IMG/VR virus record: IMGVR_UViG_2529292883_000004
Span: 1-37,784 of that record
Reading direction: 5' to 3' (one strand)
Length of the DNA: 37,784 nt
Source: a virus
Lineage: Duplodnaviria; Heunggongvirae; Uroviricota; Caudoviricetes
A model generated the notes under the pieces. That model did not search any database. It was not told where the DNA came from and saw nothing but the letters and a program-made list of their open reading frames with translations. Numbering within the stretch: position 1 is the stretch's first letter; every line of letters starts with the position of its first letter. Positions 1,180 to 15,390 of this stretch are shown here, in pieces. The position numbers were made by a program, and so were the translations under genes.

Positions 1180-1967
1180 ATGAATTTTACGTTTACTGAC
1201 TCTGGATACACTGAAACAAATAAAAACAATCCCCCTATCATATTCGTTCATGGATTTTTCATGAATAATGAAATGTTCAAATACCAGTTTGACGAACTAA
1301 AAGAAAAACATAGAGTTGTTTGCATTAATGTTCGGGGTTTCGATGCCACCTCCGAAAAAACTGAGCCATTCTCGCTCTATGACATCGTTGATGACATTGT
1401 AAACGTCGCAGACTCACTACAACTGGATAAGTTTATTTTAGGGGGATGTCGATGGGGGGGTATATATCATTACGATTTGCCCTGTCACATCCAGAGCGTT
1501 TGTCAGGACTAATCCTTATGGCAACTCAGGTCGAGCAGGACCCGCCAGAAATTGCATCCAGTTATATGGAACTATGTAATGGATGGCATAACTCACTCAT
1601 AAAAGAAGAGATAATATCCTCATTATTACCCGTTTTCTTTGGAAAGAATATCTCTGAAGCAGAGATATGGAGACAAGTATGGCTACGTCATAAACCTGAA
1701 AACATCAAACCAGCTATGAATGCAATGCTGGAGCGAGACGATATTTCAGATAAAGTTCATACGATCAAAGCGCCCACACTGATTCTTCATGGATCCGTCG
1801 ATACAGGAATACCACCGGAGAAAGCTCTTGAAATGCACAAAATGATCCCGCACTCTGAGCTTGCGATTATACCTGACGCCAATCATGCATTGAATGTCAC
1901 TCATGCAAAAGAAGTAAATACCATAATAAAAAAATGGTTACAAAAACACACTGAGAGTCAAAGTTAA
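1180..1967 (+). pseudogene. Alpha/beta-hydrolase fold gene, frameshifted at a G-run
   Basis: Two overlapping ORFs (1180..1512 and 1446..1967) read as one hydrolase when joined: HGFFMNNEMF near the N-terminus and a nucleophile elbow GG-MSMGG (GxSxG) that straddles the frame break. The break sits at the G5 run 1441..1445, just 5' of ATG 1446. The region is visibly AT-rich. Confidence 0.6.
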
Positions 1968-2206: not shown

Positions 2207-2746
2207 TTATGACGTGACTCTAGGTTCGTCCGGCCAGACTGTCGCGTTGTAGCTCGCCTCATCCGTCACACCACTTAAATCCAGCGCCTGAAGCGCCTTT
2301 ATGTAAGCCAGCCATTCCGTCAGGCTTTCCTTGTCATCATTAGTGATGATGTCCAGCAGAAGCTCTGACTGCCAGAGGCTGATTCTCTCCTTCGCATCCG
2401 ATATCAATGCGCTTCGTTGCGATTCCGCCTTTGCCTGCCACTCCGCTGCTGTCAGCGTTCGCGCAACCACACTCTCCCCGTCGAACACCCAGTTGCCGTC
2501 GATATCCGCACCGTCCGGCAGCGACTCAACCTCAGCAACACTCAGACTGACAGGACAAAGTGCCGACACATCGGTCGAAATACTGCGCACTATACCGTCA
2601 CTGTCATACGCAACTTTGTATGTATCCTCTGCAAACTGCGTCTGGCATTCATACCAGTCCTGACCATCCTCGCTGATGAGATATGTCGCCCACGCCACGG
2701 GCGGGTTTTCCGGGGTGTATTGCCTGAAATTTTTGATGTTTATCAT
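2207..2746 (-). CDS. Tail fiber assembly protein (P2 gpG-like)
   Basis: 179 aa, immediately downstream of the fiber gene. Internal region (SEDGQDWYE...VAYDSDGIV...SVAEVESLPDG...NWVFDGESVVAR...EWQAKAESQRSALISDA) resembles P2 gpG as recalled, and the protein ends with a WPDEP-type tail. Confidence 0.8.
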   Translation of the reverse strand: MINIKNFRQYTPENPPVAWATYLISEDGQDWYECQTQFAEDTYKVAYDSDGIVRSISTDVSALCPVSLSVAEVESLPDGADIDGNWVFDGESVVARTLTAAEWQAKAESQRSALISDAKERISLWQSELLLDIITNDDKESLTEWLAYIKALQALDLSGVTDEASYNATVWPDEPRVTS

Positions 2747-2758: not shown

Positions 2759-3550
2759 TTACAGTGATATCGCATTTATCCATGTACCGTTTATGCAGTA
2801 CTGAATCTGCCTGTAATAAATTCCGCCAATGTTATCTGCTGAATTTGATCCCGTTTCCTGAACAATAATACCTGTGAGCACATTTCCGGAGGAGAGATTA
2901 CTGGTCCACGACACCTCGTTACCGGAAGGCGTGTATGAGCTGGCGCTACTCAGTCTCACTGCCGACACACCGCCCGTCGTCAGCAGGTAACGGGCATCGA
3001 GCGTACTCAGATCCTGGGTTGCCACATCTCCCAGCCCCAGATTTGTTCTGGCCCCTGACGCAGTCGTGGCCCCGGTACCGCCACTGCTCACCGGCAGTGT
3101 GCCGGTCACGCCCAGCGTGACATTCGCACTGCCATCAAAAGTAACTGCACCCGTACTGCCAAGATTTATCTGGATTGTCCGGCCCGTTTTCAGTTTTGTG
3201 GCTGTATCCGCATTGCCCGTCAGGTCACCCGTGAGGGATGTCCCTGTTATCGCGCCGCCGGTGATATTCACCGCGTCACTGTTCTGACCGGCCATCGTAC
3301 CCAGAGCACCAATGGCGGTGTTCACATTCTCCTGTGAGGCAAAATATTTCGATAACGCCTGCCAGAGTTGTGTGTCATCAGTCGGATCCAGCGTCAGCCC
3401 CGCACTCTCCACAACCTTCACCAGCTCCCGCTGAATGAGGTTAAACCACGCCGCCAGCAACGGCGTTGGCTTCAGCCCTGTGGCAGGCGCGCCGTCAGTG
3501 AACTCGTCGTTTTCATCAACATACGGTGTGATATCAGATATTTTCTTCAC
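2759..3550 (-). CDS. Tail fiber protein with P2 gpH-like C-terminal receptor-binding domain
   Basis: The ORF-track start (GTG at 3571) lies inside a hairpin. An in-frame GTG at 3550 has an AAGGAG RBS 6 nt upstream and gives a protein starting MKKISDITPYV. The C-terminus ...YYRQIQYCINGTWINAISL matches the P2 H ending ...KYINGTWYNVAQV; a Gly/Thr-rich middle is present. Confidence 0.8.
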   Translation of the reverse strand: MKKISDITPYVDENDEFTDGAPATGLKPTPLLAAWFNLIQRELVKVVESAGLTLDPTDDTQLWQALSKYFASQENVNTAIGALGTMAGQNSDAVNITGGAITGTSLTGDLTGNADTATKLKTGRTIQINLGSTGAVTFDGSANVTLGVTGTLPVSSGGTGATTASGARTNLGLGDVATQDLSTLDARYLLTTGGVSAVRLSSASSYTPSGNEVSWTSNLSSGNVLTGIIVQETGSNSADNIGGIYYRQIQYCINGTWINAISL

Positions 3551-3595
3551 GCATATCTCCTTACCCGCCACCGGAGCGGCGGGATCCTCCTGTTA

Positions 3596-6500
3596 TTAAA
3601 CCCAGACTGGATAACGCTCAGACAAGATGCTGAAATCGCTCAGGGATACGCAGTTATAAAACGCATCCGCGTAACTCGTCACGCCAGGCAACTTCTCAAT
3701 GAGCGCACATCCGCTTCCCTGCAATGACCGGCAGTTGTAAAAACAACGGTACACACTGGTTATTTGCGGGTACTCTTCCGCCGGGAGAATGTCATTCACA
3801 TCACTCTCCAGCCCTGTGCAACCGTAAAAGGTGCCCTCAAACGTCGTCGCACTGACGCACCCCGCAAACAAGCCGTCGCCCACAGTGGTCAGCCCCGTAC
3901 AACCGTTAAAGGTCTCTCTGAATGTTGTGACGCTGGCGAGTCCTGCAAACAGTCCGTCTGGTATCGTCATCAGCCCCGTGCAACCATCAAAGGTCTGATA
4001 GAACGATGTCACTCCGGTACAGTTTTCAAACAGCCCGGCAGGCAGCACCGCCAGCCCCGTACAGCCGTAAAAAGTCTGACTGAACGTGGTCACAGCAGTG
4101 TTGTTGTCAAACAACCCTTCCGGCAGTGTCTTCAGACCTGTACAGCCCCGGAACGTCCGGTAAAACGACGTCACACGGTTACAGTTATCAAACAATCCTG
4201 CAGGTAACATCGTCAGCCCCGTACAGCCGAAAAACGTATCCTGGAAAGACCCTGCGCTGACACAACGGTCAAATACCGCCTCAGGCACCGTCGTCAGGGC
4301 GGCACACCGGTAAAATGTCCGGTAGAAGGTTGTCACGCCGTGGCTGCTGTCAAACAGCCCTGCAGGTATTGCTGTCAGCTTCGTGCAGCCACTGAAAGTC
4401 TGATAGAACGACGTCACACCTGTACATCCGTCAAATACACTGTCTCCCAGCGTTGTCAGCTTCGTGCAGTCGTAAAATGTGCCTTCGAACGTCGATGCAC
4501 TGCTGCAGCCTGCAAACGCCCTTTCACCCACCGTTACCAGTTCCGTGCAGCCATAAAACGTCCGGAAGAAGGTCGTCACACGACTACAGTTTTCAAACAG
4601 CCCGGCAGGCAGCGCCTTCAGTCTCACACAGTCGCCAAAGGCATAACTGAACGTCGTCACAGAGACGCAGTTGTCAAACAGCCCTGCCGGTATCGCTGTC
4701 AGAGCCGTACAGCCATAAAAAGCACTACTGAACGTGGTCACGGCAGTGCAGCTGTCAAACATCCCTTCCGGCAATGCCGTCAGTCCCCTGCAGTTATAAA
4801 AAGCACTACTGAACGTCGTCACAGCAGTACAACCTGCAAACACTCCCTCTCCTATGGATGTCAGCCCCGTACAGCCGTAAAACGCCCGGTAGAACGTCGT
4901 AACACTGGTACATCCGGCAAACACGCCGTCTCCCACCGTTGTCAGCCCGGCACAACCATAAAAGGTGTCTTCAAACGTTGTGGCACTGACACAACCGGCA
5001 AACACATTGTCGCCCAGCGTTCTCAGCCCGGAACAACCGTAAAAGGTCCGCCTGAAGGTTGTCACACTTACACAGTCTGCAAACAATCCTGACGGTATCG
5101 CGGTCAGGCCCGTGCATTCGTAAAACGCCTCAAAGAAAGTGGTGACACTGGCGCTGTCAGCGAACAACCCTGCCGGTATCGTTGTCAGCCCCCGGCATCC
5201 CGAAAACACCCCCTCAAACGTCGTGGCACCGGTACAGTCTGCAAATAATCTGGCCGGTACCTCCGACAACCCGGTACATTCGCCAAAAGTCTTATAGAAA
5301 GACTTTGCTCCGGTACAACCGGAAAACAACTCTGCAGGAACTTCCGACAGACGGGTACAACGGTAAAATGTCGTATAGAACGTCGTGGCTCCGGTACAAT
5401 CTGCAAACAATTCCGGGGGGACCATTGCCAGTCCTGTACACCCCAAAAACGACCGGTAAAACGATCTGACACCCGAACAACCAGCAAACACGTCAGCCGG
5501 TATCGTGACCAGTCCGGTGCAACCTTCAAATAAGCTTGCGAATGTTGTGGTACCTGTACAACCAGCAAATACTCTGTCACCCACTGTTGTCAGTGCTCTG
5601 CACCCGTAAAACGCGCTGTCAAACGTCGTGACACTGGTGAGTTTTTCAAATAACCCTGCCGGTATCGTTACCAGCCCCGAGCATCCCGAAAACCCCCCCT
5701 CAAACGTCGCAACCTCTGTGCAGTTTGCGAACAATTTTGCCGGTATCGCTGTCAGGGCCGCGCAGCCATAAAACGTCCGGTTGAATGTCGTCACCCCGGT
5801 ACAACTGTCAAACAACCCTTCCGGTATTGCTGTCAGAGCCGTGCAGCCATAAAAGGCATTACTGAACGTGGTCACGGCAGTGCAGCTGTCAAACATCCCT
5901 TCCGGCAATGCCGTCAGTCCCCTGCAGTTATAAAAAGCCTGGAGGAATGTCGTCACCCCGGTGCAGTCTGCAAATATCCCCTGACCTAATGATGTCAGCG
6001 CCTGGCAGCCATAAAAGGCCTGCAAAAACGTTGTGGCACTGGCACATCCGGCAAACACGCTGTTACCCACCGTGCTCAGTTCCCTGCAGTTATAAAAGAC
6101 CCTGTAAAATGTTGTCGCACTGGTGCACCCGGCAAACACATGGTCCCCCACGGCGCTCAGTCCGGTACAACCATAAAAGGTATCCTCAAACGTCGTGGCA
6201 CCGGTGCACCCGGCAAACACGCTCTCACCCACCGCTCTCAGCCCGGTACAGCCGTAAAACGCCTGACGAAAAGTCGTTACGCCTGTGCAGCCGGCAAACG
6301 CGCTGTCACCGACTGCAGTGAGTCCCGTACATTCGTAAAATGCCTGATAGAACGTCGTGGCGCTGGCGCACTCAGCAAACAGCCCCGGAGGTATCGCAGT
6401 CAGTCCTTTACACCGGTAAAATGCACTGTCGAATGCCGTAGCGTTTTTGCAAAAACGGAATGCGCCGCTGTCAATACTCACCAGACTGGGGGTATTACTC

Positions 6501-7939
6501 GCAAGGTAGCTACAGGATTTTTGTCCCGCCGGAAGTTGACGTAGTCTGACCAGGTCGTTGTAAGCCGTGCTGCTGTACCCGTACACCCTGAACCTGACAC
6601 TCCCCGCCGTTCTCACCCTGATTGTCCGGAGCTCCCCGTCTGCCAGTGAGTCGGGTAACAGGATATTCGCCCAGCCCCCGCTGGTTGTCGTTTCAAGCTG
6701 GTCCGCAGCAACATATCCGTCGCCGAAGCTGACACGACAGTTCACCACATCAGCAACACTGACCAGCGCTTTTGACGATGAAGCACAGACCGAATCAAAA
6801 ACCGCCGGCACGTAACAGCTGACCTGTAATGTTGCCGTGTGTCCGCCGTCATTTGTCGTCACCGTCACCACCGCATCACCTTCGCTCACCCCGCACACGG
6901 TCAGTGAACTGTCGCTGTTGACCACCACCGACACCACGCTTTCATCGCTGACCGTCACAGTCCAGCTCCGGTCTTCAGCATTCTCCGGCCAGACATTCAC
7001 CGCAACCGCGACATGCTCATCATTATCAAGCTCCAGCTCAGTGACCGACAGGTTCACACCGCGCACACTCACGATTTTCCGCAGATTTATCACCTCACTG
7101 CGTACCGGTACTGTCACGTCATCCGGCATATCAACGGCAGCCTCTGCATACGCCGAATACCAGCCGTTCGCAAAATCATCATCCTCCATTTCATACGACC
7201 AGTGCCCTTCACTGTCCGTTGTCACTGTCGCCACATACCGCTGTCCCGACGCGGATTTGATGACAACATTCACCGTCCCCCCCGACACCACCACCCCCTC
7301 ATCTGCCGTGAGCGCACCGGAAAGAACGTGTGTGATGTTGTCCCACGCAATGCTCAGGGCGGCGCTGTACGATGACTGCCACTCAAACGTCACCAGCGTA
7401 TGCGCCGGGGCATAACGACGAAACAGGCACTCCAGGTACGCCCGTGAGGTGGTCACCTCATCCCCCGGCGGGGCCACCACCACGGTCCAGTTAAACCGGT
7501 TGTCGTCACTCAGCAGATGCCCGCTCCACGAAAATCCGCACAGTGGTGTGCGGTACTCACGGATAGTGATGCTGTACCCCATCGTCGCCGCAAGCTCCGT
7601 GAAATACGCCACACTCTGCCCGCCTGTCGACAGCAGTTTCGCCAGAATGAATTTTCTGGCCTGCGCCGGGTCTGTGGTGGATGCCTGCGTCCCGCATTCA
7701 TCATTCAGCCCCAGCGAGGCATACCACTCATCAGTGAGCGCATCCGCCGTTTCCGGGAAGGCGCCCGTTATCAGTGCGCACGCATCAGCGTCACTCTGCC
7801 GGTACGCCTGTGCCAGTCCGCGTATCAGCCTGTGCTGCACACTGTCAGGCAGACGGCTCCAGGCAATCCCTGACGGCAGAAGGTTCAGCATCGCGCGCGT
7901 GTAGTCATCATGTGAAAAACGACTCATCTTTTTCCTCAT
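3596..7939 (-). CDS. Giant baseplate-associated protein: Mu gp48/DUF2313-like N-terminal domain + Ig-like domain + ~30 x 27-aa Cys-containing LRR-like repeats
   Basis: 1447-aa ORF whose start overlaps the stop of the J-like gene (7936..7939). The N-terminal ~190 aa resemble Mu gp48-type baseplate proteins as recalled. An Ig-like stretch follows (VTVSDESVVSVVVNSDSSLTVCGVSEGDAVVTVTTNDGGHTATLQVSCY). Then a long array of 27-aa units with consensus about xVFAGCTGxTTFxxxFYGCTGLTxxGD, flavoured like BspA-type LRRs. Confidence 0.85.
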   Translation of the reverse strand: MRKKMSRFSHDDYTRAMLNLLPSGIAWSRLPDSVQHRLIRGLAQAYRQSDADACALITGAFPETADALTDEWYASLGLNDECGTQASTTDPAQARKFILAKLLSTGGQSVAYFTELAATMGYSITIREYRTPLCGFSWSGHLLSDDNRFNWTVVVAPPGDEVTTSRAYLECLFRRYAPAHTLVTFEWQSSYSAALSIAWDNITHVLSGALTADEGVVVSGGTVNVVIKSASGQRYVATVTTDSEGHWSYEMEDDDFANGWYSAYAEAAVDMPDDVTVPVRSEVINLRKIVSVRGVNLSVTELELDNDEHVAVAVNVWPENAEDRSWTVTVSDESVVSVVVNSDSSLTVCGVSEGDAVVTVTTNDGGHTATLQVSCYVPAVFDSVCASSSKALVSVADVVNCRVSFGDGYVAADQLETTTSGGWANILLPDSLADGELRTIRVRTAGSVRFRVYGYSSTAYNDLVRLRQLPAGQKSCSYLASNTPSLVSIDSGAFRFCKNATAFDSAFYRCKGLTAIPPGLFAECASATTFYQAFYECTGLTAVGDSAFAGCTGVTTFRQAFYGCTGLRAVGESVFAGCTGATTFEDTFYGCTGLSAVGDHVFAGCTSATTFYRVFYNCRELSTVGNSVFAGCASATTFLQAFYGCQALTSLGQGIFADCTGVTTFLQAFYNCRGLTALPEGMFDSCTAVTTFSNAFYGCTALTAIPEGLFDSCTGVTTFNRTFYGCAALTAIPAKLFANCTEVATFEGGFSGCSGLVTIPAGLFEKLTSVTTFDSAFYGCRALTTVGDRVFAGCTGTTTFASLFEGCTGLVTIPADVFAGCSGVRSFYRSFLGCTGLAMVPPELFADCTGATTFYTTFYRCTRLSEVPAELFSGCTGAKSFYKTFGECTGLSEVPARLFADCTGATTFEGVFSGCRGLTTIPAGLFADSASVTTFFEAFYECTGLTAIPSGLFADCVSVTTFRRTFYGCSGLRTLGDNVFAGCVSATTFEDTFYGCAGLTTVGDGVFAGCTSVTTFYRAFYGCTGLTSIGEGVFAGCTAVTTFSSAFYNCRGLTALPEGMFDSCTAVTTFSSAFYGCTALTAIPAGLFDNCVSVTTFSYAFGDCVRLKALPAGLFENCSRVTTFFRTFYGCTELVTVGERAFAGCSSASTFEGTFYDCTKLTTLGDSVFDGCTGVTSFYQTFSGCTKLTAIPAGLFDSSHGVTTFYRTFYRCAALTTVPEAVFDRCVSAGSFQDTFFGCTGLTMLPAGLFDNCNRVTSFYRTFRGCTGLKTLPEGLFDNNTAVTTFSQTFYGCTGLAVLPAGLFENCTGVTSFYQTFDGCTGLMTIPDGLFAGLASVTTFRETFNGCTGLTTVGDGLFAGCVSATTFEGTFYGCTGLESDVNDILPAEEYPQITSVYRCFYNCRSLQGSGCALIEKLPGVTSYADAFYNCVSLSDFSILSERYPVWV
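3784..6440. repeat. Imperfect tandem array of 81-bp coding repeats (about 30 units) inside the giant gene
   Basis: An 81-nt periodicity is visible in the DNA (recurring gtacagccgtaaaa-like cores) and as a 27-aa periodicity in the protein. Boundaries are approximate. Confidence 0.8.
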
Positions 7940-9090
7940 GTTGCCCAGGTTATCGTTCCGGTCACCGGCAGCTCTCCCTGCGACAGCGTGATGTTGCTGT
8001 CAGGAGACACCAGAATGAACCCGTCTGTCCCCTCTGTGTCCGCAATGGCGTACCAGAGGTCTGAAAGGTGAATCACCCCGCTGCCGTCCGGTTCACCCAC
8101 GTTGTACAGCACCTCGCTGATGGCACTCTCCACCCGTGCCTTCAGTGCCGCCGTGGCACTGCTCAGCCCCTGTATCTCAAAATCAATGCTTCTGGCCACC
8201 GGCGACATCACGTACACCACCGCTGTGACCGGCTGGTACTGCCGGATATGGTCCGCCACCGTCAGCTGCACCCCCGTGGCTTTCCGGTCCGTCCAGTCCT
8301 CATCCGTTGCCACCCCGTCCGTGCCGTCAGGAAAGCCCCCGGCGTTGTCTTCATCATCTCCGTCCGTCATGATGTAAACACCCACCGTCCCGAACCCCAG
8401 CGCACGGTTCACACACCATGCGCGGGTCACACCGGGAACTTCCAGCGCCCACTGCACATAGTCCGCCGCCGCCCCGCCCTGAGGCGGGTTCTGGTACGCA
8501 TACAGCACGCGCTGGCGGTACGCTTCCTCATCCTCAGTGTCACTGCCGCCGGTGGCGGCACTCACCATCGTCACCGTTGAGTCGATGCCTGACCAGGTGA
8601 CATCCGGTGTCAGGGTCGTTCCGGCATCCGCGTTACCGTCATCACCACCGCCGGTGCGGTCATCCGTCGGGTCCGGCAGCACCGCCGTGATACTCCCCGT
8701 GCCGCTGCCGTCACTGTCAATGCTCACATCCTCATCCAGCGTGTACTGATACCCGTCCGCACGGTTCAGCACCGCCTCCGCGCACACCGTGCTGCCCGGT
8801 GTGCCCGTAAAGCGCACCGCCTCACAGGTGGCCGCCACTGCTGCCCTGCGGATGATGCCCTTCAGTGCCCCCCACGCCGCCAGATACTCCCCGGTGGCCG
8901 TGGCCGGTGTGCACTGCTGCGCTATCCAGTCAAGATAGCCGTAATGCAGATGCGTCATGCCCGCCACGGCATCCGCCAGAATCCCCAGCGTGGAAAACCG
9001 TAGCAGGGCACCGGCCTCATCCAGCTGGCCGGTCACATACGACCGGCTTTTCTCACGCAGTTCGCTTAATCCGGGACGCTCAAACGGCAT
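7936..9090 (-). CDS. Baseplate J-like protein (Mu gp47-like)
   Basis: Start chosen at the ATG at 9090 (MPFERPGL...), which avoids overlap with the upstream gene whose stop is at 9092. Acidic Gly/Asp-rich middle; synteny between the gp46-like and gp48-like genes. Confidence 0.65.
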   Translation of the reverse strand: MPFERPGLSELREKSRSYVTGQLDEAGALLRFSTLGILADAVAGMTHLHYGYLDWIAQQCTPATATGEYLAAWGALKGIIRRAAVAATCEAVRFTGTPGSTVCAEAVLNRADGYQYTLDEDVSIDSDGSGTGSITAVLPDPTDDRTGGGDDGNADAGTTLTPDVTWSGIDSTVTMVSAATGGSDTEDEEAYRQRVLYAYQNPPQGGAAADYVQWALEVPGVTRAWCVNRALGFGTVGVYIMTDGDDEDNAGGFPDGTDGVATDEDWTDRKATGVQLTVADHIRQYQPVTAVVYVMSPVARSIDFEIQGLSSATAALKARVESAISEVLYNVGEPDGSGVIHLSDLWYAIADTEGTDGFILVSPDSNITLSQGELPVTGTITWAT

Positions 9091-9091
9091 C

Positions 9092-9529
9092 TCATACCTC
9101 CCACACCCGGTAAAATTTCTGGTATTCCGTCGTGTCCGCATCCGGACGCTGGTATGCAATGGTCATGTACAGCCGGTCCGGCGGCACTATCCACGCTTCC
9201 ACATCCAGCGAGGCCACCACGCCGTCATCCTTCAGCCACTGCAGCGCCTCCCGGGCGTATGCCTCCGCCTTAAGCGCCACCTGTGTGGTCAGTTTCTGCC
9301 TGCGCAGCAGCCACAGCCGGGAGCCGACCCGGTAGTCCTGCTCAAGGTCACCCCACCATCCGCGCCGGTTGCCGTCATCCGTCTCATCTGATGCATCCGC
9401 CAGCCTGTCCGTGAACAGGCTGATGAGAATGGCCGTCTGCAAATCATTTCCGCAGACAATGTCACCTGTGCCCACGGACCAGTCGCACCGCAGCACCTCT
9501 TCATCGTACAAAAGCGTGATATCGCTCAT
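9092..9529 (-). CDS. Baseplate protein, Mu gp46 / GPW-gp25-like
   Basis: 145 aa with size and position typical of the gp46 family between the spike (V) and J genes. Family recalled from memory. Confidence 0.6.
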   Translation of the reverse strand: MSDITLLYDEEVLRCDWSVGTGDIVCGNDLQTAILISLFTDRLADASDETDDGNRRGWWGDLEQDYRVGSRLWLLRRQKLTTQVALKAEAYAREALQWLKDDGVVASLDVEAWIVPPDRLYMTIAYQRPDADTTEYQKFYRVWEV

Positions 9530-9530
9530 C

Positions 9531-10112
9531 TCACACCGTCTCCGTGGTTGCCTGACTTGTCACCGCGCTGCCGCCGCTCTCCACACCGCTGACCGGGTGG
9601 GTGTGGATGTTGTATGCCTCCCGCAGCGCCTTCAGCGTGGTGCTGTTGGTTTCACAGTTGTCCGTGATATCCCCCGTCACCTTCAGCGACGGCGTTTCAA
9701 GGGTGACCCCGTCCGTCGCCGTCACCTTCAGCGTGGTGGCACTGTTCACCGTCACCGGCTGCCCGGCGGCCTCCACCACAATCCCGTCCTCACCCAGACG
9801 GACGAACTGCCCCCACTGGTTGTACACCACCACCTCACCGCTGCTCAGACCGTTAATCCGGTATGACTGATGGCCGGACGCCACCACCACCGCGCTGCTG
9901 CGGTTACCGGCAAGACTCAGTACCACCACATCCGTTCCGTCGGGCAGCACCGAGGAAAAACCAAACTGCTGAAGAACCGGCGTGTCGCTGCGTACCTCTG
10001 ACGGACTCTGCACCTGCACTGTCTGCACCACACCGCTGTCATCACCCGCCGTCACGCGCCCCACACTCAGCAGTGACACCAGACGGCGAAAAAGCACCTG
10101 TACAGGATTCAT
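9531..10112 (-). CDS. Baseplate assembly protein V / spike (Mu gp45-like)
   Basis: 193 aa, beta-rich, with position between the P-like and gp46-like genes; sequence is typical of gpV-like spikes. Confidence 0.6.
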   Translation of the reverse strand: MNPVQVLFRRLVSLLSVGRVTAGDDSGVVQTVQVQSPSEVRSDTPVLQQFGFSSVLPDGTDVVVLSLAGNRSSAVVVASGHQSYRINGLSSGEVVVYNQWGQFVRLGEDGIVVEAAGQPVTVNSATTLKVTATDGVTLETPSLKVTGDITDNCETNSTTLKALREAYNIHTHPVSGVESGGSAVTSQATTETV

Positions 10113-11197
10113 GACGACACATCCCTTCCGGCCACGCCGGAATAAAAACGGTACGGCTGCACGCTGAACGCCTCCGGCGGCATCAGGACCAGCGATGCCG
10201 TGGTCCCCGTCTCATCGTCACGGCTGAACGTCACCTCAGAGACCAGCCAGTTCAGACTGTCCGCCCTCAGTGCCGGTATGCTCACCGGCACAAAGGTGTT
10301 GGGCTGCCACAGCGCCCCCGCACTGTCACGCCAGCTGTCCACCGTCACATTCAGGGACACTGAACGCCCGTAGCGCCGGTTCATCTCCCAGTTCACCGCC
10401 TGCTGTGCGCACCCCGTCGTCATCAGCGTGCTCTCCACTATCGTCACGTGACGACGGGTGCGCATACTGACGGCTTCCGGGTCACGGGCCGTCGCCAGCA
10501 GCACGCTGTCATAACCGGATGCCGGTGACAGCTCGCTGAGGCTGTTTACCGACACCGACAGGCCGGTGTATTCCGAAAACCGTTCATTCATGCTTCGTGT
10601 GTACTCCGCCTTCTGCAGGTTCACCCCCTGCGTCACCCCGCTGGCTGCCGACGCCGTTCCTGCCCGCGTCAGGAACAGGCTGCCATCCGGCAGGTCGTAA
10701 TACAGCAGCCCCTCATACCGGCAGATGCGGTCGATGATTTGCTGCGACGACTCCCCCCAGTTGATGACAAAATCCGGCACCGTGGTGAAACTGTCGATGT
10801 CTGTCGTCACCGTGATGCCGTACACCGACGCCAGTTTTCTGATGATGGCCAGCGCATCGCCGCCCTTTATCATGTTGTTCTCCCACCAGGCTGCGCAGTC
10901 CACAAGGTCCTGGCACATTCCCCTGCCCGTCACCCGGATATCATGCGACTGCGGCGTCAGGGTGTTCACCCACTGGTCGACATAGCCGGTCATCACCCGG
11001 TCATCACCAATGGATATCGTGCAGCTGCTCCCCGGCGGGGCCAGCTGAAAGCCCTCCTGCGGATACCAGTCCGTCAGCGAAAGCTCAAAATCCGACGGCA
11101 GGCGCTCAATACCCCGCGTCACCCGGATATGGCTCCACCCCGACATGACGGTGTTGTTCACCTTCAGCGTCAGGGTGTCATCTGTGGTTGTACTCAT
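10109..11197 (-). CDS. Baseplate hub / tail protein (Mu P, gp44-like; P2 gpD-like)
   Basis: 362 aa, translationally coupled between the N-like and V-like genes. Assignment is mainly by synteny. Confidence 0.55.
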   Translation of the reverse strand: MSTTTDDTLTLKVNNTVMSGWSHIRVTRGIERLPSDFELSLTDWYPQEGFQLAPPGSSCTISIGDDRVMTGYVDQWVNTLTPQSHDIRVTGRGMCQDLVDCAAWWENNMIKGGDALAIIRKLASVYGITVTTDIDSFTTVPDFVINWGESSQQIIDRICRYEGLLYYDLPDGSLFLTRAGTASAASGVTQGVNLQKAEYTRSMNERFSEYTGLSVSVNSLSELSPASGYDSVLLATARDPEAVSMRTRRHVTIVESTLMTTGCAQQAVNWEMNRRYGRSVSLNVTVDSWRDSAGALWQPNTFVPVSIPALRADSLNWLVSEVTFSRDDETGTTASLVLMPPEAFSVQPYRFYSGVAGRDVSS

Positions 11198-12600
11198 GTG
11201 TTTCTCGCTGTGAAGGAAAGCGGCATGAACGCCGGATGGACGGGAGAGACCGCCTGTACCAGCTCGTCCGCACGCGCGGCGTCCTGATACAGCCGGTTTG
11301 CCAGCGCCAGCGACGGCTGCGGTGAGCGGCTGGTCACCTTCATCACCTCCTGTTGTGACAGATAATTCGTCTGCCAGTGGGTGACAAACTGCGTGTACTG
11401 CGCATTCAGCGCGTCATAACTGTCGTCATCCGTACGGTCAGCCAGTAACAGCAGGACGGTTTCCGTCACCGTGCGGGCTTTCCGCATCACCAACACCGCG
11501 TCGTCGTGACCACGGGGGGAATACTGCATCAGCCGCCACAGCATCGCTCCGGCCCCCAGTGTGCGGATAAGGGCCTGCACCGCCGCAGAGATGGCATTTG
11601 CCGCCTCCCCTTCGTAATACTTCCCGTCTTCCGCCGACGCAATCTCTGCCATGACGCGGATTTTCTCCGTGTCGCTGCCCGTGGCCTCCGCCAGAGTGAT
11701 AATGACCGCCTGTATCGCGGACACTGCACCGGACACGGATGTGATATCCTCCAGCACCGCTGTCGCCGACTCCGCCGCCGACCGGTCCTGCACGGAGCAG
11801 GCCTGAATGGTTTCCAGGATACTGTCATCATCCGCATCCGTGGTGGCAAGCCACGTTGAAAGCGACGAGGCCGTGCTGCCCGACGGCGTGTCACTGCCCC
11901 GACAGTAACGCCCGTAACTGTCCGGGGCATACAGTGATGACACCGTGCTGGTCATGCTGGTCACCGATGTCACCGCCCGCGAAAATATCGTCTTCCACGC
12001 GCTCACCGTGCTCTTTATCGTTTTTACCGCGCCGGTGACACTGTTCATCTCACCGGTAATCGCCGCCAGCGTCACGGTGGCCGTTGTGGTCAGCGTCTGA
12101 TACCACGTCTCCGATGACGTGGAGGTTGTCCCCGTCACCAGCGAAAACGCTTTTTCCCCTGACTCAATGACCGTGAGCGTGAACGAAAACACACGCCCGG
12201 ACTCCACGCCCTCCTCAATACGCAGCCCGCCGTCCGGGACATACACCGTCATCTCACCCAGAGTCGGATGGACCAGCAGACCTCCGCCGGATGTTTCACA
12301 GGCCGCCACCAGGGCATCCCGCTGACTGAACACATCCCCCGCGCTGTACACCAGACTGTCCTGTATCAGGAACCCGCGCAGTGTGAACTTCCGGGTGGCG
12401 CGCCCCAGGTCTTCCACCCAGACCGTATCGCGGTACGGGTATTCATGCACCGCCACCCGGCGACCATACACCCCCTCTCCGGCAATCACGCCGAACGGCA
12501 CGCCACAAAATGACGCCTGGTGAATATGCGACTGCCACTCCCACCCGCCGGAGGAAGACAGCCCCAGGGCGGATGACACCGCGTCTGTGATAATGCCCAT
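11194..12600 (-). CDS. DNA circularization protein N (Mu gp43-like) tail protein
   Basis: Start chosen at the ATG at 12600 (MGIITDAVS...) with a GAGGAG RBS 6 nt upstream; the ORF-track start at 12618 is that RBS itself. N-terminal region resembles the Mu N family as recalled. Confidence 0.65.
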   Translation of the reverse strand: MGIITDAVSSALGLSSSGGWEWQSHIHQASFCGVPFGVIAGEGVYGRRVAVHEYPYRDTVWVEDLGRATRKFTLRGFLIQDSLVYSAGDVFSQRDALVAACETSGGGLLVHPTLGEMTVYVPDGGLRIEEGVESGRVFSFTLTVIESGEKAFSLVTGTTSTSSETWYQTLTTTATVTLAAITGEMNSVTGAVKTIKSTVSAWKTIFSRAVTSVTSMTSTVSSLYAPDSYGRYCRGSDTPSGSTASSLSTWLATTDADDDSILETIQACSVQDRSAAESATAVLEDITSVSGAVSAIQAVIITLAEATGSDTEKIRVMAEIASAEDGKYYEGEAANAISAAVQALIRTLGAGAMLWRLMQYSPRGHDDAVLVMRKARTVTETVLLLLADRTDDDSYDALNAQYTQFVTHWQTNYLSQQEVMKVTSRSPQPSLALANRLYQDAARADELVQAVSPVHPAFMPLSFTARNT

Positions 12601-12610
12601 CTTCTGCTCC

Positions 12611-14569
12611 TCACACATTCATCGCCGTGACCACCGCGCCCCCCTTCACCGTCCGGCGGGTTGTCTGCCCCGTGGCGGTGTTGGTGACGTTAATGTCCAG
12701 CCGGATTTTGTTTTCGCTGAAACCGCGACTGATTTCATCCCGCACGTCAGTCCCTGAACTGCCGGACTGCGGCATGATGATGCTGCCGCCGGATACCTGC
12801 GACATGTACCTGAACACCTTCGGCGAGTAGGTCTGTGTCTCCTGTGGCATCCCCTTCTGTCCGCGAAGCCAGGCGCTCATATTGCCTTCGCCCCAGTTGT
12901 AAGCCTGAAAGGCGCGCTGCATATCACCACCATACTGCGCCATCAGCCCCGCCAGTTTTCTGGCCGCTGCCTCCGAGGCCCGGTAAGGGTTGAATACATC
13001 CATACCGGAAAGGCCATACTCCCGGGCCGTCGGGTCAATGAACTGAAACATCCCCTTTGCCGTGCCGTAACGGGTGAGCGGCCCGACAGCATCCGCCCGC
13101 CCGGAAGACTCCGTCATGGCCAGACCGTACAGCGTGTTTTCCGGCAGGTTGTACTGCTTCTCCAGCGCCGCAAAATGCGCCCGCAGTTCAGGGGTGATAT
13201 CACGACCACCGGCACCGTTTTTTTGTGGTGACGTGACCTGTGACAGGGCCGGAGACACCATAACTTTCGACAGATCGTCATTCAGCATCGTGGTAAGCGC
13301 ATTCAGTCTGTCGGACCGCTGACCGGACAGACGCGTGTGCATCTCCAGGAGATCTGATGTCGCGATATTGTTATCGAGATTGTATCTTTGCCGGGACGTC
13401 AGTGATTTCAGTTGCTCCGGATGGGCATACAGATAACCGCGCAGCTCTGACAGACGGTCACCCGTTTTCTGCTGACTGCTGCGCTGACCGGTCAGGACAT
13501 CGGTCGCCCAGTCCACGGAGGCGGTGACAGCATCACTGCCCAGTACCTTCGCCTTCATCCTGCCGGTGAAACCATCCCACGCGGCTGACAGACGGTTCAG
13601 GTTGCTGTTGGCCTGAACCAGCTTCGCATTCAGACTGTCCGGCATCGACAGCCCCAGACGATCGGACTCCGCCAGCGCCGCATTCAGGTTTTTCGTTCCC
13701 CGCAGCAGCGCCAGTTGTGCATCCGACAGCCCCAGCGCGTCCGCCACCACCTTCTGCGACGAACTGTTCAGTCGCCCGAAGGCATCAATCAGGTTCTGCG
13801 TGCTCTTTTCCAGGTTCACCGTGTGGTCGCTGTTCTCCGCCAGCTTCACACCAAACTGGTTAAGAATGCCCGTGACCTCCGGTGAACGGGTGTTCAGCGC
13901 ATCGTTCAGTGTCGTGAACAATGCACCGGTCTCCGCCTGTGCCTGATCTGCCGACAGGCCCATCAGACGGAACACCCCGGCAAAGCGGCTGAACGCACTC
14001 ACGCTCATTCCGGCGTTCCTTGCGTTCACATCCAGGCTGTATGCCGCTTTCGAAGCATCATAAAGATTACTGACGACCGCCTTCACCGCCATGCCACCGC
14101 CAGCGACCGCAAGCCCCGCAAGACCTCCGCGCCCCAGCGCACTGAACAGCTCTGATGACAGTGCCCCGACATTGCGCAGCGGCGGCACAATATCCCCGAA
14201 ATGCTGTGACGTGTCCTTCCCCAGCCGGGACAGCCGTTCAAAATATCCGGACATCCTGTCCGCATTCTCCTGACTCTCCCTTCCCAGCACCCTGTTACCC
14301 GCCCTGTCTGTGGCCAGCAGCGCGTTCATCAGTAGCGTAACCGAATCGTGGATCTGCGTTATCTTCCCGCCCAGCGCATCCGCCGCACCGGATGCCCCCT
14401 TCAGGGGCATTTCATTTACCGCATCAAGCCCGTCACACAGTTCTGACACGCAGGCCGCCGCCTGCCCTGCGCGACCTGCCAGCGAACCGGCAGCCTCTGA
14501 GGCTCTCAGTAAAAGCGCATCCGCGTTACCCTTTGCATTCAGCTCAAAAACAAAAGCATTACCCGCCAT
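12611..14569 (-). CDS. Tail tape measure protein with C-terminal lytic transglycosylase (SLT) domain
   Basis: Long Ala/Leu/Gly-rich helical protein. The C-terminal part carries an SLT-like signature (GLAMTESSGRADAVGPLTRYGTAKGMFQF...AYNWGEGN). ATG at 14569 has a GAGGAG RBS 5 nt upstream; the ORF-track start is a GTG at 14575. Confidence 0.8.
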   Translation of the reverse strand: MAGNAFVFELNAKGNADALLLRASEAAGSLAGRAGQAAACVSELCDGLDAVNEMPLKGASGAADALGGKITQIHDSVTLLMNALLATDRAGNRVLGRESQENADRMSGYFERLSRLGKDTSQHFGDIVPPLRNVGALSSELFSALGRGGLAGLAVAGGGMAVKAVVSNLYDASKAAYSLDVNARNAGMSVSAFSRFAGVFRLMGLSADQAQAETGALFTTLNDALNTRSPEVTGILNQFGVKLAENSDHTVNLEKSTQNLIDAFGRLNSSSQKVVADALGLSDAQLALLRGTKNLNAALAESDRLGLSMPDSLNAKLVQANSNLNRLSAAWDGFTGRMKAKVLGSDAVTASVDWATDVLTGQRSSQQKTGDRLSELRGYLYAHPEQLKSLTSRQRYNLDNNIATSDLLEMHTRLSGQRSDRLNALTTMLNDDLSKVMVSPALSQVTSPQKNGAGGRDITPELRAHFAALEKQYNLPENTLYGLAMTESSGRADAVGPLTRYGTAKGMFQFIDPTAREYGLSGMDVFNPYRASEAAARKLAGLMAQYGGDMQRAFQAYNWGEGNMSAWLRGQKGMPQETQTYSPKVFRYMSQVSGGSIIMPQSGSSGTDVRDEISRGFSENKIRLDINVTNTATGQTTRRTVKGGAVVTAMNV

Positions 14570-14722: not shown

Positions 14723-14986
14723 ACCCGTCAGGAACCGCTCACACTTTTTGTAATCGGACACCGCCATGAATTTCAGCGGGGCAGACGGCACGCCCGCCAC
14801 TGCCGCAATCAGCTCACGCATGGCCGCCATTGCGCCCAGTGAGGCGGTATTGCGGTGAAAGTCCTCCGCCTGGAACAGCACCGGCTCTTTCAGGCGAAGC
14901 TCACGGAACTCCGTCCTGGTATCCGGATCCCTTACCGGACGCTTCAGGGTCACCACCAGTTCTTCGGTCTGTTTCTCATTCATCAT
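14705..14986 (-). CDS. Tail assembly chaperone (G-like; Mu gp41-like)
   Basis: 93-aa ORF immediately upstream of the tape measure gene. Carries a canonical slippery heptamer near its 3' end (see next feature). Confidence 0.7.
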   Translation of the reverse strand: MMNEKQTEELVVTLKRPVRDPDTRTEFRELRLKEPVLFQAEDFHRNTASLGAMAAMRELIAAVAGVPSAPLKFMAVSDYKKCERFLTGFFLEA

Positions 14987-15354
14987 CAGCTCTCCGTCAC
15001 TTCCTGCCCTTCAAAACGGGCCGTAAAGGTTGCATCGTTGTTGTCTGTCTCAATCCGGCCAGTCAGCCACATGTTCTGACCGAGAATGGTCTTGCCGTTC
15101 ACCAGATAGGCCGCCACCGTCACATCCGTATATGCCGCAAAATCCTTCAGTGACAGTGAGCCGGAATCACGCACCGTCATCTCGATAAACGGCGCTTTGT
15201 ACGACTCCTTAAAGCCATGTATGCCGCTCATCCCCGTGAGCGTTTCACGCTCGATTTCACCCACGGAATATCTGAACGTTCCGGCCACATTGACCGACAC
15301 GCCGTCAATCGTCACGGTACAGGTGCCCGCTAACGCGTTCTGACTCATCATCAT
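14986..15354 (-). CDS. Tail tube protein (Mu gp40/M-like)
   Basis: 122 aa, immediately downstream of the sheath gene; size and position typical for a myovirus tube protein. Confidence 0.65.
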   Translation of the reverse strand: MMMSQNALAGTCTVTIDGVSVNVAGTFRYSVGEIERETLTGMSGIHGFKESYKAPFIEMTVRDSGSLSLKDFAAYTDVTVAAYLVNGKTILGQNMWLTGRIETDNNDATFTARFEGQEVTES

Positions 15355-15390
15355 CTCCCGTAAAAAAGCCGCCCGCAGGCGGCATCATGG

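What the first reader, a model, noticed from the sequence alone, without database searches (positions are those of the whole stretch)
3596..7939. Giant chimeric baseplate protein: gp48-like wedge domain fused to an Ig-like domain and ~30 Cys-containing LRR-like repeats
Where a Mu-type baseplate would carry a ~200-aa gp48 protein, this prophage encodes a 1447-aa protein. Its N-terminal ~190 aa look gp48/DUF2313-like; the rest is an Ig-like domain and a ~2.6-kb array of 27-aa repeats (xVFAGCTGxTTFxxxFYGCTGLTxxGD). A conventional P2 H-like fiber and assembly protein follow. This suggests a second, modular receptor-binding or host-range appendage anchored directly in the baseplate. The 81-bp in-frame repeats could expand or contract by recombination without breaking the frame. 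I do not recognise this architecture as a described tail protein family.
Basis: partly seen in the sequence, partly recalled or inferred. Interest (0 to 1): 0.8.

Follow-up and report, generated by a model that had tools for sequence, protein, structure and literature searches.

The report
Baseplate wedge protein with LRR arm
A prophage of E. coli has fused its small outer baseplate wedge protein to a 1,250-residue arm of three Ig-like domains and a 33-turn leucine-rich-repeat rod; related phages carry the same arm, where it is the fastest-diverging part of the tail, so it is probably an undescribed kind of host-recognition appendage.

Summary
Window 3596-7939 (minus strand) is one intact 1447-aa ORF. 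Its probable start is ATG 7927, giving 1443 aa.

Layout:
- aa 1-190: Mu gp48 wedge domain (Pfam PF10076; solved Mu gp48, PDB 9ki1).
- aa 191-465: three Ig-like domains.
- aa 466-1447: capped solenoid with 33 gap-free 27-aa repeats of the BspA/LRR_5/PARCEL type. AlphaFold2 mean pLDDT is 89.

The gene sits where gp48 sits, after Baseplate_J/gp47. A 263-aa tail fibre and its chaperone follow.

The array is not an artefact. Repeats are only 59% identical at DNA level, and the gene recurs at 98.5-99.2% identity in complete E. coli genomes.

The same Ig-plus-LRR-plus-cap arm is grafted onto two other outer-wedge families: P2 gpI in Klebsiella-type prophages (71 IMG/VR loci) and PF11041 Phage_Wedge1. 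In the P2 set the anchor domain and gpJ stay 94-99% identical (gpJ 83% in one locus), while the LRR rod falls to 44%. That is a host-range-cassette signature.

Best reading: six monomeric adhesin arms per baseplate. Binding and ligand are inferred, not shown. The family is catalogued (phrog_9915, "leucine-rich repeat protein") but I found no description. I rate it a new variant of a known kind.

The parts
3596..7939 (-). Whole gene: gp48(BW3)-Ig x3-LRR wedge/arm protein. 1447 aa from ATG 7939; probable start ATG 7927, 1443 aa; stop codon 3596-3598.
   Evidence: PGAP start in E. coli C8
7370..7939 (-). aa 1-190: Mu gp48 / BW3 wedge anchor domain. The Mu fibre-docking-loop region aligns without deletion.
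   Evidence: Pfam PF10076 E 8e-21; phrog_203 baseplate wedge E 8e-45; PDB 9ki1_a Mu gp48 E 5e-14 over residues 7-175 of 180
7085..7369 (-). aa ~191-285: first Ig-like beta-sandwich (weak Big_13).
   Evidence: AF2 pLDDT 81-91; Big_13 E 0.0026, below cut-off; tandem-Ig Foldseek hits
6815..7084 (-). aa ~286-375: Big_2 Ig-like domain.
   Evidence: Pfam PF02368 E 4e-7; AF2 pLDDT ~90
6545..6814 (-). aa ~376-465: third beta-sandwich domain that always precedes the LRR in this module family.
   Evidence: AF2; homologous segment in Klebsiella gp35, P0159, P0075, P0016
6464..6544 (-). aa 466-492: degenerate N-terminal capping repeat.
3791..6463 (-). aa 493-1383: 33 repeats of 27 aa (81 bp), BspA/LRR_5/DUF285/PARCEL type. 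One solenoid coil per repeat.
   Evidence: LRR_5 E 3e-35; TIGR02167 77 bits; AF2 mean pLDDT 89.2; Foldseek LRR hits
3599..3790 (-). aa 1384-1447: C-terminal cap (two degenerate repeats plus helices), conserved across the module family.
7936..9159 (-). Upstream gene: Baseplate_J / gp47 (BW2). Its stop overlaps ATG 7939.
   Evidence: Pfam PF04865 E 2e-55
9092..12618 (-). gp46 (9092-9529), gp45 spike (9531-10112), gp44 hub (10109-11197) and gp43 DNA_circ_N (11194-12618): the rest of the Mu-type baseplate operon.
2759..3571 (-). Downstream tail fibre. 270 aa from GTG 3571; probable start GTG 3550 after AAGGAG, 263 aa.
   Evidence: PHROG tail-fibre families; PDB tail fibres 8vbx, 9cuy and weak Mu S N-terminus
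2207..2746 (-). Tail fibre assembly chaperone.
   Evidence: Pfam Caudo_TAP E 2e-25

Best explanation
**What it is.** The gene encodes the outermost wedge subunit of a Mu-type simple contractile-tail baseplate. This subunit is BW3, the class of Mu gp48 and P2 gpI. It has been extended at its C-terminus by a 1,250-residue arm.

**How it is built.**
- The N-terminal 190 residues build into the wedge as in Mu. Mu has one BW3 per wedge, so there would be six per virion. In Mu, BW3 forms a three-helix bundle with two gp47 and carries the loop that docks the trimeric tail fibre.
- From the end of that domain, three Ig-like domains form a stalk.
- The stalk carries a capped beta-solenoid of 33 BspA/PARCEL-type leucine-rich repeats. 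At about 4.8 A rise per coil and ~35 coils, the rod would be ~17 nm long. That length is inferred, not measured.

**What it most likely does.** Six monomeric arms project from the baseplate rim beside the conventional fibres. They act as an accessory adhesin or host-recognition module. They would bind a cell-surface structure through the variable residues of the repeat, chiefly positions 12-13, 4 and 26-27.

**How specificity changes.** Specificity and reach change in two ways. In E. coli alleles, in-register recombination between the 81-bp repeats changes copy number. Across phage lineages, the whole arm is exchanged behind a conserved anchor.

**Shown.** Domain identities, gene position, predicted fold, allelic repeat-number change, module exchange, and the divergence pattern.

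**Inferred.** Virion incorporation, stoichiometry, projection geometry, and binding function. The ligand is unknown.
For: - **Anchor identity.**
  - Pfam PF10076 scores above its gathering cut-off, and phrog_203 (baseplate wedge) matches.
  - The solved Mu gp48 (9ki1) matches end to end.
  - Gene order is gp43-gp44-gp45-gp46-gp47-[this gene]-fibre-chaperone.
- **Role of gp48 in Mu.** The Mu cryo-EM paper PMC11915804 places BW3 at the baseplate periphery, one copy per wedge. Its loop at residues 133-155 docks fibre gp49.
- **Arm fold.**
  - Three Ig-like domains have pLDDT 80-93 and match tandem-Ig structures.
  - The solenoid has mean pLDDT 89.2, with one coil and three short strands per 27 aa.
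  - Foldseek hits are TLRs, SHOC2 and BspA-type 4fs7 and 4gt6.
- **Core and surface pattern.** F2, F11, F15, C18 and L21 are invariant in 33 of 33 repeats. Positions 12-13 reach 2.9 bits of entropy.
- **Repeat plasticity.** Alleles have 33 (window, C8, L008), 34 (DS26-1, L010), 20 (L009: repeats 1-9 then 23-33) and 18 repeats (E24377A). All are in frame and in register.
- **Modularity within the lineage.** Sister E. coli gp48 proteins of 278-681 aa carry other C-terminal modules. P0016 has the same arm with about 5 repeats.
- **Modularity across anchors.** The same arm, with a homologous C-cap, is fused to two other anchors (cap alignment).
  - Tail_P2_I in Klebsiella phage ST16-OXA48phi5.4 gp35.
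  - PF11041 Phage_Wedge1 in an E217/Pam3-like prophage.
- **Cassette signature.** In 41 P2-type IMG/VR loci, identity to the reference by segment is as follows.
  - gpI anchor: 94-99%.
  - gpJ: 95-100%, with 83% in one locus.
  - Ig/beta stalk: down to 70%.
  - LRR rod: down to 44%.
  - Fibre: 82-93%.
Against: - No experiment shows that the protein is in virions or binds anything.
- Characterised phage receptor-binding proteins are nearly always trimeric fibres or spikes. An LRR solenoid is a monomeric fold.
- A conventional fibre and chaperone are present, so the arm is not obviously needed for adsorption.
- The Mu-anchored LRR form is rare: 6 of 5426 complete E. coli genomes.
- The gp48 domain itself was modelled with low confidence in isolation, pLDDT 40-70. 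Retention of the fibre-docking loop therefore rests on alignment only.
- High divergence of the arm could also reflect relaxed constraint on a non-essential decoration.
- In the P2-type set, repeat number is constant at 1006-1009 aa. Copy-number change is therefore not a general feature of the family.
Confidence: 0.55

Rival explanations
1. Structural, non-recognition role. The arms would form a skirt, strut or spacer around the baseplate. They might set stand-off distance, shield the fibres or the spike, or stabilise the pre-contraction state. They would not bind a specific receptor.
For: - T4 gp7, the analogue of BW3, is a large multi-domain scaffold rather than a receptor binder (established knowledge, not tested here).
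- Ig-like domains on virions are often decorations; Foldseek hits include N4 capsid decoration and lambda gpV.
- A normal fibre is present.
Against: - A purely structural strut would be expected to co-evolve with its partners and stay conserved. Instead the arm drops to 44% identity behind a 94-99% identical anchor.
- It tolerates 18 to 34 repeats.
- It is replaced by unrelated modules in sister prophages.
Confidence: 0.2
2. Adhesion to something other than the bacterial host. The target could be gut mucus, animal-cell surfaces or biofilm matrix, as proposed for Ig-like capsid decorations and as known for BspA-type LRR adhesins of bacteria. This would keep virions where hosts are found.
For: - The repeat belongs to the BspA/LRR_5/PARCEL surface-protein family.
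- Ig-like domains are present.
- Carrier strains come from guts of cow, human, baboon and pigeon.
Against: - The arm is placed on the baseplate rim next to the fibres, not on the capsid or tail tube.
- The cassette-like divergence tracks closely related prophages, which fits bacterial surface diversity better than conserved animal targets.
- No direct evidence exists either way.
Confidence: 0.15
3. A non-functional accident. A repeat element inserted into or fused with gp48 in a decaying prophage and persists without function. Alternatively, the array is an assembly artefact.
For: - E24377A carries a shortened allele in a visibly degraded prophage.
- The Mu-anchored form is rare in E. coli.
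- PARCEL repeats are described as horizontally mobile (PMC2996958).
Against: - The ORF is intact in every allele despite rearrangements, always in frame.
- The window prophage has complete head, tail and lysis modules.
- The same architecture arose on three anchor families and is kept at constant length in the 41 full-length P2-type loci measured, out of 71 found.
- Repeats are 59% identical, so they assemble unambiguously, and the gene is present in closed genomes.
Confidence: 0.05

Closest known systems
Phage Mu gp48 (BW3; PDB 9ki1; Pfam PF10076 Phage_Mu_Gp48/DUF2313; E. coli YmfQ family)
   Same: The N-terminal 190 aa are homologous over the whole length of Mu gp48. The gene occupies the same slot after gp47. 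It presumably has the same wedge position and fibre-docking role.
   Different: Mu gp48 is 180 aa and ends where this protein's arm begins. Here 1,250 further residues (3 Ig-like domains plus a 33-coil LRR plus a cap) are covalently attached.
Klebsiella phage ST16-OXA48phi5.4 gp35 'tail protein I' and about 70 IMG/VR relatives (phrog_9915, function unknown)
   Same: It has the same arm: Big_2, a beta domain, a 27-aa-period LRR and a homologous C-cap. Identity to window aa 295-1166 is 31%. It holds the same gene position after the gp47/gpJ homologue and before the fibre.
   Different: The anchor is P2 gpI (PF09684), not Mu gp48. It has one fewer Ig-like domain and roughly 20 repeats. Length is constant at 1006-1009 aa. 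A 70-aa ORF lies between it and the fibre. It is uncharacterised.
PF11041 (DUF2612/Phage_Wedge1)-anchored arm proteins P0159 (1147 aa) and P0075 (806 aa)
   Same: They share the Ig, Big_2, beta-domain, LRR and cap module and the position after Baseplate_J in an enterobacterial prophage.
   Different: This is a third, unrelated-by-Pfam wedge anchor, in an E217/Pam3-type tail. Both come from metagenome-type assemblies only.
T4 gp7 (and large gp7-like subunits of extracellular contractile injection systems)
   Same: It is a BW3-class wedge subunit enlarged by extra domains at the baseplate periphery (from established knowledge; not tested here).
   Different: No sequence similarity was detected. 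The extra domains of T4 gp7 hold other baseplate proteins and are not LRR or Ig arrays.
BspA-type LRR_5 / DUF285 / TIGR02167 'PARCEL' surface proteins (e.g. PDB 4fs7, 4gt6; PMC2996958)
   Same: They share the repeat family, solenoid fold and sequence-variable amphipathic repeat. Tandem copy number is variable.
   Different: Those are cell-surface proteins or lipoproteins of bacteria and protists. This one has no export signal and is fused to a virion wedge protein. The dyad symmetry that gives PARCEL its name was not detectable here.
LRR-bearing proteins in other phages (Phapecoctavirus tuntematon gp128 'tail protein'; jumbo-phage 'BspA family LRR surface proteins')
   Same: They carry the LRR_5-type solenoid. 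In tuntematon it lies at the C-terminus of the last gene of the tail-fibre cluster.
   Different: They are not fused to a wedge subunit. All are uncharacterised.

Membership tests
Mu gp48 / BW3 baseplate wedge subunit (PF10076) | Sequence match to the family profile above the curated threshold | tested here: met
   74.8 bits against a gathering cut-off of 37.4, aa 16-186 covering profile positions 2-148 of 150; phrog_203 E 8e-45
Mu gp48 / BW3 baseplate wedge subunit (PF10076) | Homology to the structurally solved Mu gp48 over its whole length | tested here: met
   9ki1_a E 5e-14, chain residues 7-175 of 180
Mu gp48 / BW3 baseplate wedge subunit (PF10076) | Gene position directly after Baseplate_J/gp47 and before the tail fibre in a gp43-gp47 operon | tested here: met
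   start codon overlaps or abuts the gp47 stop
Mu gp48 / BW3 baseplate wedge subunit (PF10076) | N-terminal helix joins two gp47 in the wedge core bundle; loop docks the fibre N-terminus | tested here: inconclusive
   Helices are predicted at the N-terminus, but pLDDT is 40-70 for the isolated domain. The loop region aligns without deletion but is not conserved in sequence. No complex prediction was possible.
BspA-type LRR_5 / DUF285 / TIGR02167 (PARCEL) repeat proteins | Profile match above curated threshold | tested here: met
   LRR_5 121.3 bits against 27.7; TIGR02167 77 bits against 30
BspA-type LRR_5 / DUF285 / TIGR02167 (PARCEL) repeat proteins | Solenoid fold with one coil per repeat | tested here: met
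   AF2 mean pLDDT 89.2 with 27-residue periodic strands; Foldseek hits to TLRs, SHOC2, 4fs7 and 4gt6 at E 1e-9 to 1e-11. This is a prediction, not an experimental structure.
BspA-type LRR_5 / DUF285 / TIGR02167 (PARCEL) repeat proteins | Dyad (palindromic) symmetry of the repeat-coding DNA | tested here: not met
   Best reverse-complement match of the 81-nt profile is 0.339, against 0.321 +/- 0.013 (max 0.380) for column shuffles
BspA-type LRR_5 / DUF285 / TIGR02167 (PARCEL) repeat proteins | Cell-surface or lipoprotein export context | tested here: not met
   The N-terminus is the gp48 domain, not a signal or lipoprotein peptide, and the gene lies in a phage tail operon
Phage receptor-binding tail fibre / tailspike | Trimeric fibre or spike architecture, often with a dedicated chaperone | tested here: not met
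   The predicted fold is Ig domains plus an LRR solenoid, which are monomeric folds. The chaperone downstream follows the separate 263-aa fibre. Oligomeric state was not tested.
Phage receptor-binding tail fibre / tailspike | Demonstrated binding to a host receptor; determines host range | not testable with these tools
   Only indirect evidence: cassette-like divergence and repeat-number alleles

The most novel reading that the evidence does not exclude
The arm would be a new class of phage host-recognition device. It is a monomeric leucine-rich-repeat receptor built covalently into the baseplate wedge, six per virion, rather than a trimeric fibre or spike. Its specificity would evolve by in-register shuffling, duplication and deletion of 27-aa repeats and by whole-arm exchange between Mu-, P2- and E217-type baseplates. 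In the common Klebsiella/Enterobacter P2-like prophages, this arm rather than the fibre would be the main host-range determinant.
Probability: 0.4. Interest if true: 0.75.

Novelty: new variant of a known kind. Interest (0 to 1): 0.6.

Why it matters
- Host range of contractile-tailed phages is usually ascribed to trimeric fibres and spikes. Engineering and prediction tools look for those.
- If a wedge subunit can carry a long monomeric LRR binder, a whole class of specificity determinants is being overlooked. Databases label them 'tail protein I', 'leucine-rich repeat protein' or 'unknown function'.
- The overlooked set includes P2-like prophages of Klebsiella, a priority pathogen for phage therapy and for tailocin design.
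- An LRR rod is a tunable scaffold whose length and surface change unit by unit. It could offer a simple route to retarget phages or tailocins.
- The natural 18, 20, 33 and 34-repeat alleles give a ready-made series to test how arm length affects adsorption.

Tried and rejected
- **Homologue searches.**
  - The word-index search with the full-length protein returned only 3 hits at E <= 1e-20. With the C-terminal 145 aa it returned 6 short fragments. Repeats and fragmented assemblies defeat that index.
  - The exhaustive representative search with aa 5-492 was swamped by Big_2 arrays. It still yielded the key PF11041-anchored relatives.
- **PARCEL dyad symmetry.** I tested the repeat DNA and it was not above shuffled controls. 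The long antisense ORFs inside the gene are best explained by composition. I did not pursue them.
- **Assembly artefact.** Rejected. Repeats are diverged and the gene is present in closed genomes.
- **'Mu-like prophage'.** Rejected for the element as a whole. The head and packaging genes are lambda-type: gpA terminase, lambda portal, S49 protease and capsid E.
- **Literature.** Searches on LRR/BspA/DUF285/LRR_5 combined with baseplate, tail, prophage, receptor-binding protein or Klebsiella found no description of a wedge-LRR fusion. A SPLASH preprint that mentions LRR_5 was irrelevant.
- **Model geometry.** Arm length and curvature could not be measured and are estimated only.

Full report
**1. 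Observation**

Window 3596..7939 carries, on the minus strand, one uninterrupted ORF of 1447 codons.
- The first ATG (7939) overlaps the stop of the upstream gene as ATGA.
- A second ATG at 7927 is preceded by AGGA at a proper distance. It is the start used in RefSeq and in all homologues (MSRF..., 1443 aa).

Pfam gives three families above or near their cut-offs:
- Phage_Mu_Gp48 (PF10076) at aa 16-186, E 8e-21, 74.8 bits against a cut-off of 37.4.
- Big_2 at aa 292-373, E 4e-7.
- LRR_5 (BspA type), E 3e-35.

PHROGs gives phrog_203 'baseplate wedge subunit' for aa 4-195. It also gives a very strong match (1089 bits) to phrog_9915, a family of unknown function.

The repeat array:
- Tandem Repeats Finder reports period-81 arrays.
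- Written in register, the protein has 33 repeats of exactly 27 residues (aa 493-1383) without a single indel.
- The consensus is LFAxCTxVTTFxxxFYGCTGLTxxPxG.
- The array is preceded by one degenerate repeat and followed by a 64-residue cap.
- F2, F11, F15, C18 and L21 are invariant in all 33 repeats. Positions 12 and 13 are the most variable, at 2.9 bits.
- The protein is 154 kDa and acidic (pI 4.6), with 74 cysteines.

**2. Not an artefact**

- The repeats are only 59% identical on average at the DNA level (range 42-94%). A single 79-nt exact duplicate lies 14 repeats apart. Such an array assembles unambiguously.
- The same gene is found over its full length at 98.5-99.2% identity in three complete E. 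coli genomes: C8 from a cow, ST2350 from a human, and PapM-36-2 from a baboon. It is annotated 'leucine-rich repeat protein'.
- It also occurs in an IMG/VR contig.

**3. Context**

The gene is the sixth of a Mu-type baseplate operon:
- gp43 (DNA_circ_N)
- gp44 hub
- gp45 spike
- gp46
- gp47 (Baseplate_J)
- this gene

Upstream lie a tape-measure protein with an SLT domain, tail chaperone, tube and sheath.

Downstream lie a short tail fibre and a Caudo_TAP chaperone.
- The fibre is 270 aa from GTG 3571. The probable start is GTG 3550 after AAGGAG, giving 263 aa as in RefSeq.
- It matches solved tail fibres: 8vbx gp47 at E 2e-14 and 9cuy short tail fibre. It matches the N-terminus of Mu fibre protein S only weakly, at E 0.0017.
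- It has no Pfam family, so 'P2 H-like' is not established.

The element as a whole is not Mu-like.
- Packaging and head genes are lambda-type: gpA terminase, lambda-family portal, S49 protease and capsid E.
- There is a holin, M15 endolysin and Rz cassette.
- In the related genomes the prophage sits next to a truncated ompW beside yciE-yciF (trpA-trpB also lie in the C8 stretch), or next to ssrA.

**4. Anatomy**

The anchor domain:
- The solved Mu gp48 (PDB 9ki1 chain a, 180 aa) aligns from residue 7 to 175 with aa 14-187 of the 1447-aa ORF, E 5e-14.
- So the Mu protein ends where the extension starts.

What gp48 does in Mu, according to the Mu cryo-EM paper PMC11915804:
- It is the third wedge protein (BW3).
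- There is one copy per wedge.
- It lies at the baseplate periphery.
- Its N-terminus forms the three-helix core bundle with two gp47.
- Its loop at residues 133-155 docks the N-terminus of the trimeric fibre.

AlphaFold2 on aa 5-546, with 12 homologues:
- The gp48 domain has low confidence (pLDDT 40-70). This is expected for a subunit that folds within a bundle.
- Three well-predicted beta-sandwich domains (aa ~190-285, ~290-375, ~376-465) have pLDDT 80-93.
- Foldseek matches these only to tandem Ig-like arrays.

AlphaFold2 on aa 376-1447:
- Mean pLDDT is 89.2.
- The model is a continuous solenoid with one coil per 27 residues and three short strands per coil, at repeat positions 10-12, 15-16 and 23-24. 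It ends in a partly helical cap.
- Foldseek against the PDB returns LRR proteins only: TLR13, TLR8, TLR7, TLR3, SHOC2 and the BspA-type proteins 4fs7 and 4gt6. E-values are 1e-9 to 1e-11 with low TM-scores, so the local architecture matches but the curvature differs.

Repeat family:
- NCBIfam names the repeat TIGR02167, 'PARCEL repeat-containing surface protein' (77 bits against a cut-off of 30).
- This is the DUF285/BspA-like family described by Roske et al. (PMC2996958).
- I tested the dyad symmetry of the coding DNA that gives PARCEL its name. It was not above shuffled controls.
- Instead the repeat shows an internal 13/14-residue half-repeat: FAGCTGVT against FYGCTGLT.

**5. Repeat number really changes**

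I mapped each 81-bp unit of related alleles onto the window's 33 units.

| Allele | Repeats | Composition |
|---|---|---|
| Window, C8, IMG/VR L008 | 33 | units 1-33 |
| DS26-1, IMG/VR L010 | 34 | 1-20, three diverged units, a near-perfect second copy of 9-18, then 33 |
| 'numer 3' | 33 | same type as DS26-1, minus one unit |
| IMG/VR L009 | 20 | 1-9 joined to 23-33 |
| E24377A (degraded prophage) | 18 | 1-4, 6-18, 33; the Ig region is also deleted in frame |

Every junction is in the 27-residue register and the frame is never broken.

**6. The arm is a mobile module**

Close E. coli relatives of the gp48 domain carry different C-terminal additions:
- nothing but short peptide repeats (278 aa)
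- one Ig-like domain (285 aa)
- an Ig-like domain plus QEPLVIN-type repeats (388 aa)
- an Ig-like domain plus several Big_2 domains (547 aa)
- in P0016 (681 aa), the same Ig, Big_2, beta-domain, LRR and cap arm with only about five repeats

In strain EC12, the 389-aa form is followed by an extra 354-aa gene of unknown function before the same fibre.

The same arm is also fused to two other outer-wedge families. It has the same 27-residue period and a clearly homologous C-cap.
- **P2 gpI (PF09684).** Klebsiella phage ST16-OXA48phi5.4 gp35 is 1008 aa and annotated 'tail protein I'. It is 31% identical to window aa 295-1166.
- **PF11041 (DUF2612, now Phage_Wedge1).** P0159 is 1147 aa. It lies directly after Baseplate_J in an E217/Pam3-type prophage next to prfC-osmY.

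The P2-type form is common: 71 loci in IMG/VR. phrog_9915 is essentially this family.

**7. Divergence pattern**

I measured identity to the reference phage, segment by segment, in 41 full-length P2-type loci.

| Segment | Identity to reference |
|---|---|
| gpJ | 95-100% (83% in one locus, L031) |
| gpI anchor | 94-99% |
| Ig/beta stalk | down to 70% |
| LRR rod | down to 44% |
| C-cap | down to 44% |
| Downstream fibre | 82-93% |

- There is a sharp mosaic boundary right behind the anchor.
- The arm is the most divergent component of an otherwise nearly identical baseplate, more divergent than the fibre.
- Host-range cassettes of phage tails show this pattern.
- Arm length is constant in this set (1006-1009 aa). 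Copy-number change is therefore a feature of the E. coli Mu-type alleles, not of the whole family.

**8. Mechanism proposed**

Shown:
- The protein is a BW3 wedge subunit carrying a covalent Ig-stalk and LRR-rod arm.
- The arm varies by repeat recombination and by module exchange.

Inferred from the Mu structure:
- Six copies per virion sit at the baseplate rim, with the fibre still docking on the anchor.
- The arm starts at the anchor's C-terminus.

Inferred from general LRR geometry (about 4.8 A rise per coil):
- The rod is ~17 nm long on a ~10 nm stalk, comparable to or longer than a 263-aa fibre.

Inferred from family behaviour and the divergence pattern:
- The arm is an accessory adhesin or host-recognition device that uses the variable repeat positions.
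- I put this at about 0.55.

Rivals:
- A non-binding structural skirt or spacer (0.2).
- Adhesion to mucus or other non-host material (0.15).
- A functionless fusion or artefact (0.05).

The many cysteines (C5 and C18 of each repeat) are probably a buried ladder replacing the asparagine ladder of classical LRRs, because virions assemble in the reducing cytoplasm. That is inference only.

**9. Comparison with what is known, and novelty**

- Membership in the gp48/BW3 family and in the LRR_5/PARCEL repeat family is met by profile thresholds and by structure or prediction.
- The PARCEL-defining DNA palindromy and the cell-surface export context are not met.
- It is not a member of the trimeric fibre or spike class, although it may work like one.
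- Enlarged BW3-class subunits are known (T4 gp7). BspA-type LRR proteins are annotated in many phages: phage G, Aeromonas D3, Klebsiella jumbo phages, crAss-like phages, and a Phapecoctavirus tail-cluster protein. None of these is characterised.
- In the searchable literature I found no description of a wedge-LRR fusion. A 2020 jumbo-phage paper stated that PARCEL domains had not been described in phages (PMC7765460).
- The architecture is therefore catalogued but undescribed. I rate it a new variant of a known kind, with moderate-to-high interest (0.6).
- The function is unproven. The comparative signal is strong, though, and the family is common in Klebsiella-type P2-like prophages.

Noticed in passing
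window 14986-25590 and 27818-29362: The prophage is a hybrid. It has lambda-type packaging and head genes (gpA terminase, lambda-family portal, S49 protease, capsid E) and a holin, M15 endolysin and Rz lysis cassette. These are joined to a Mu-type contractile tail and baseplate. It is not a transposable Mu-like phage.
   Followed up: partly
window 1180-1967 (+): The alpha/beta-fold hydrolase cargo gene downstream of the tail genes is split into two overlapping ORFs (110 aa and 173 aa), as in strains DS26-1 and E24377A. In E. coli C8 and EC12 it is a single ~800-bp gene. This is probably a frameshifted moron.
   Followed up: partly
window 3564-3583 (-): A GC-rich hairpin (CCCGCC-N8-GGCGGG) without a T-run sits in the 45-nt gap between the arm gene's stop and the probable fibre start (GTG 3550). 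It overlaps the alternative GTG 3571. It could modulate translation of the fibre.
   Followed up: no
L085 3574-5830 (E. coli EC12, NZ_CP070229.1): A sister prophage has a 389-aa gp48 ending in QEPLVIN-type 17-aa repeats. An extra 354-aa protein of unknown function (phrog_8291) follows before the same 263-aa fibre. This may be a non-covalent counterpart of the fused arm.
   Followed up: partly
L002 8469-8681 and L006 11448-11672: In the P2-type and Phage_Wedge1-type relatives, a conserved 70-74-aa ORF (phrog_11426, unknown function) lies between the arm gene and the fibre. It has no counterpart in the window.
   Followed up: no
P0169 (1310 aa, Logan assembly): This protein has the gp48 domain at its C-terminus (aa 1126-1309) rather than its N-terminus. 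It may be a gp47-gp48-type fusion or another arrangement.
   Followed up: no
window 3764-7904 (+), several ORFs of 130-250 aa antisense to the arm gene: Long open frames run on the strand opposite the repeat gene; one antisense frame has only 19 stops in 1448 codons. The PARCEL paper notes such antisense ORFs. No dyad symmetry was detectable here, so composition is the likelier cause.
   Followed up: partly
L001, L003, L005 against L004: Near-identical prophages sit at two different chromosomal sites. In C8, DS26-1 and E24377A the site is beside a truncated ompW next to yciE-yciF (trpA-trpB also lie in the C8 stretch). In strain 'numer 3' the site is next to ssrA.
   Followed up: no
window 32425-32988 (-); L001 4413-5364: An ORF6N-domain (antirepressor-like) gene lies in the early region of the window. 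In the related prophages of C8, DS26-1 and E24377A, ORF6N genes also lie in the cargo region beyond the tail genes, one of them a frameshifted pseudogene. I did not check the matching left end of the window (ORF 1-561).
   Followed up: no
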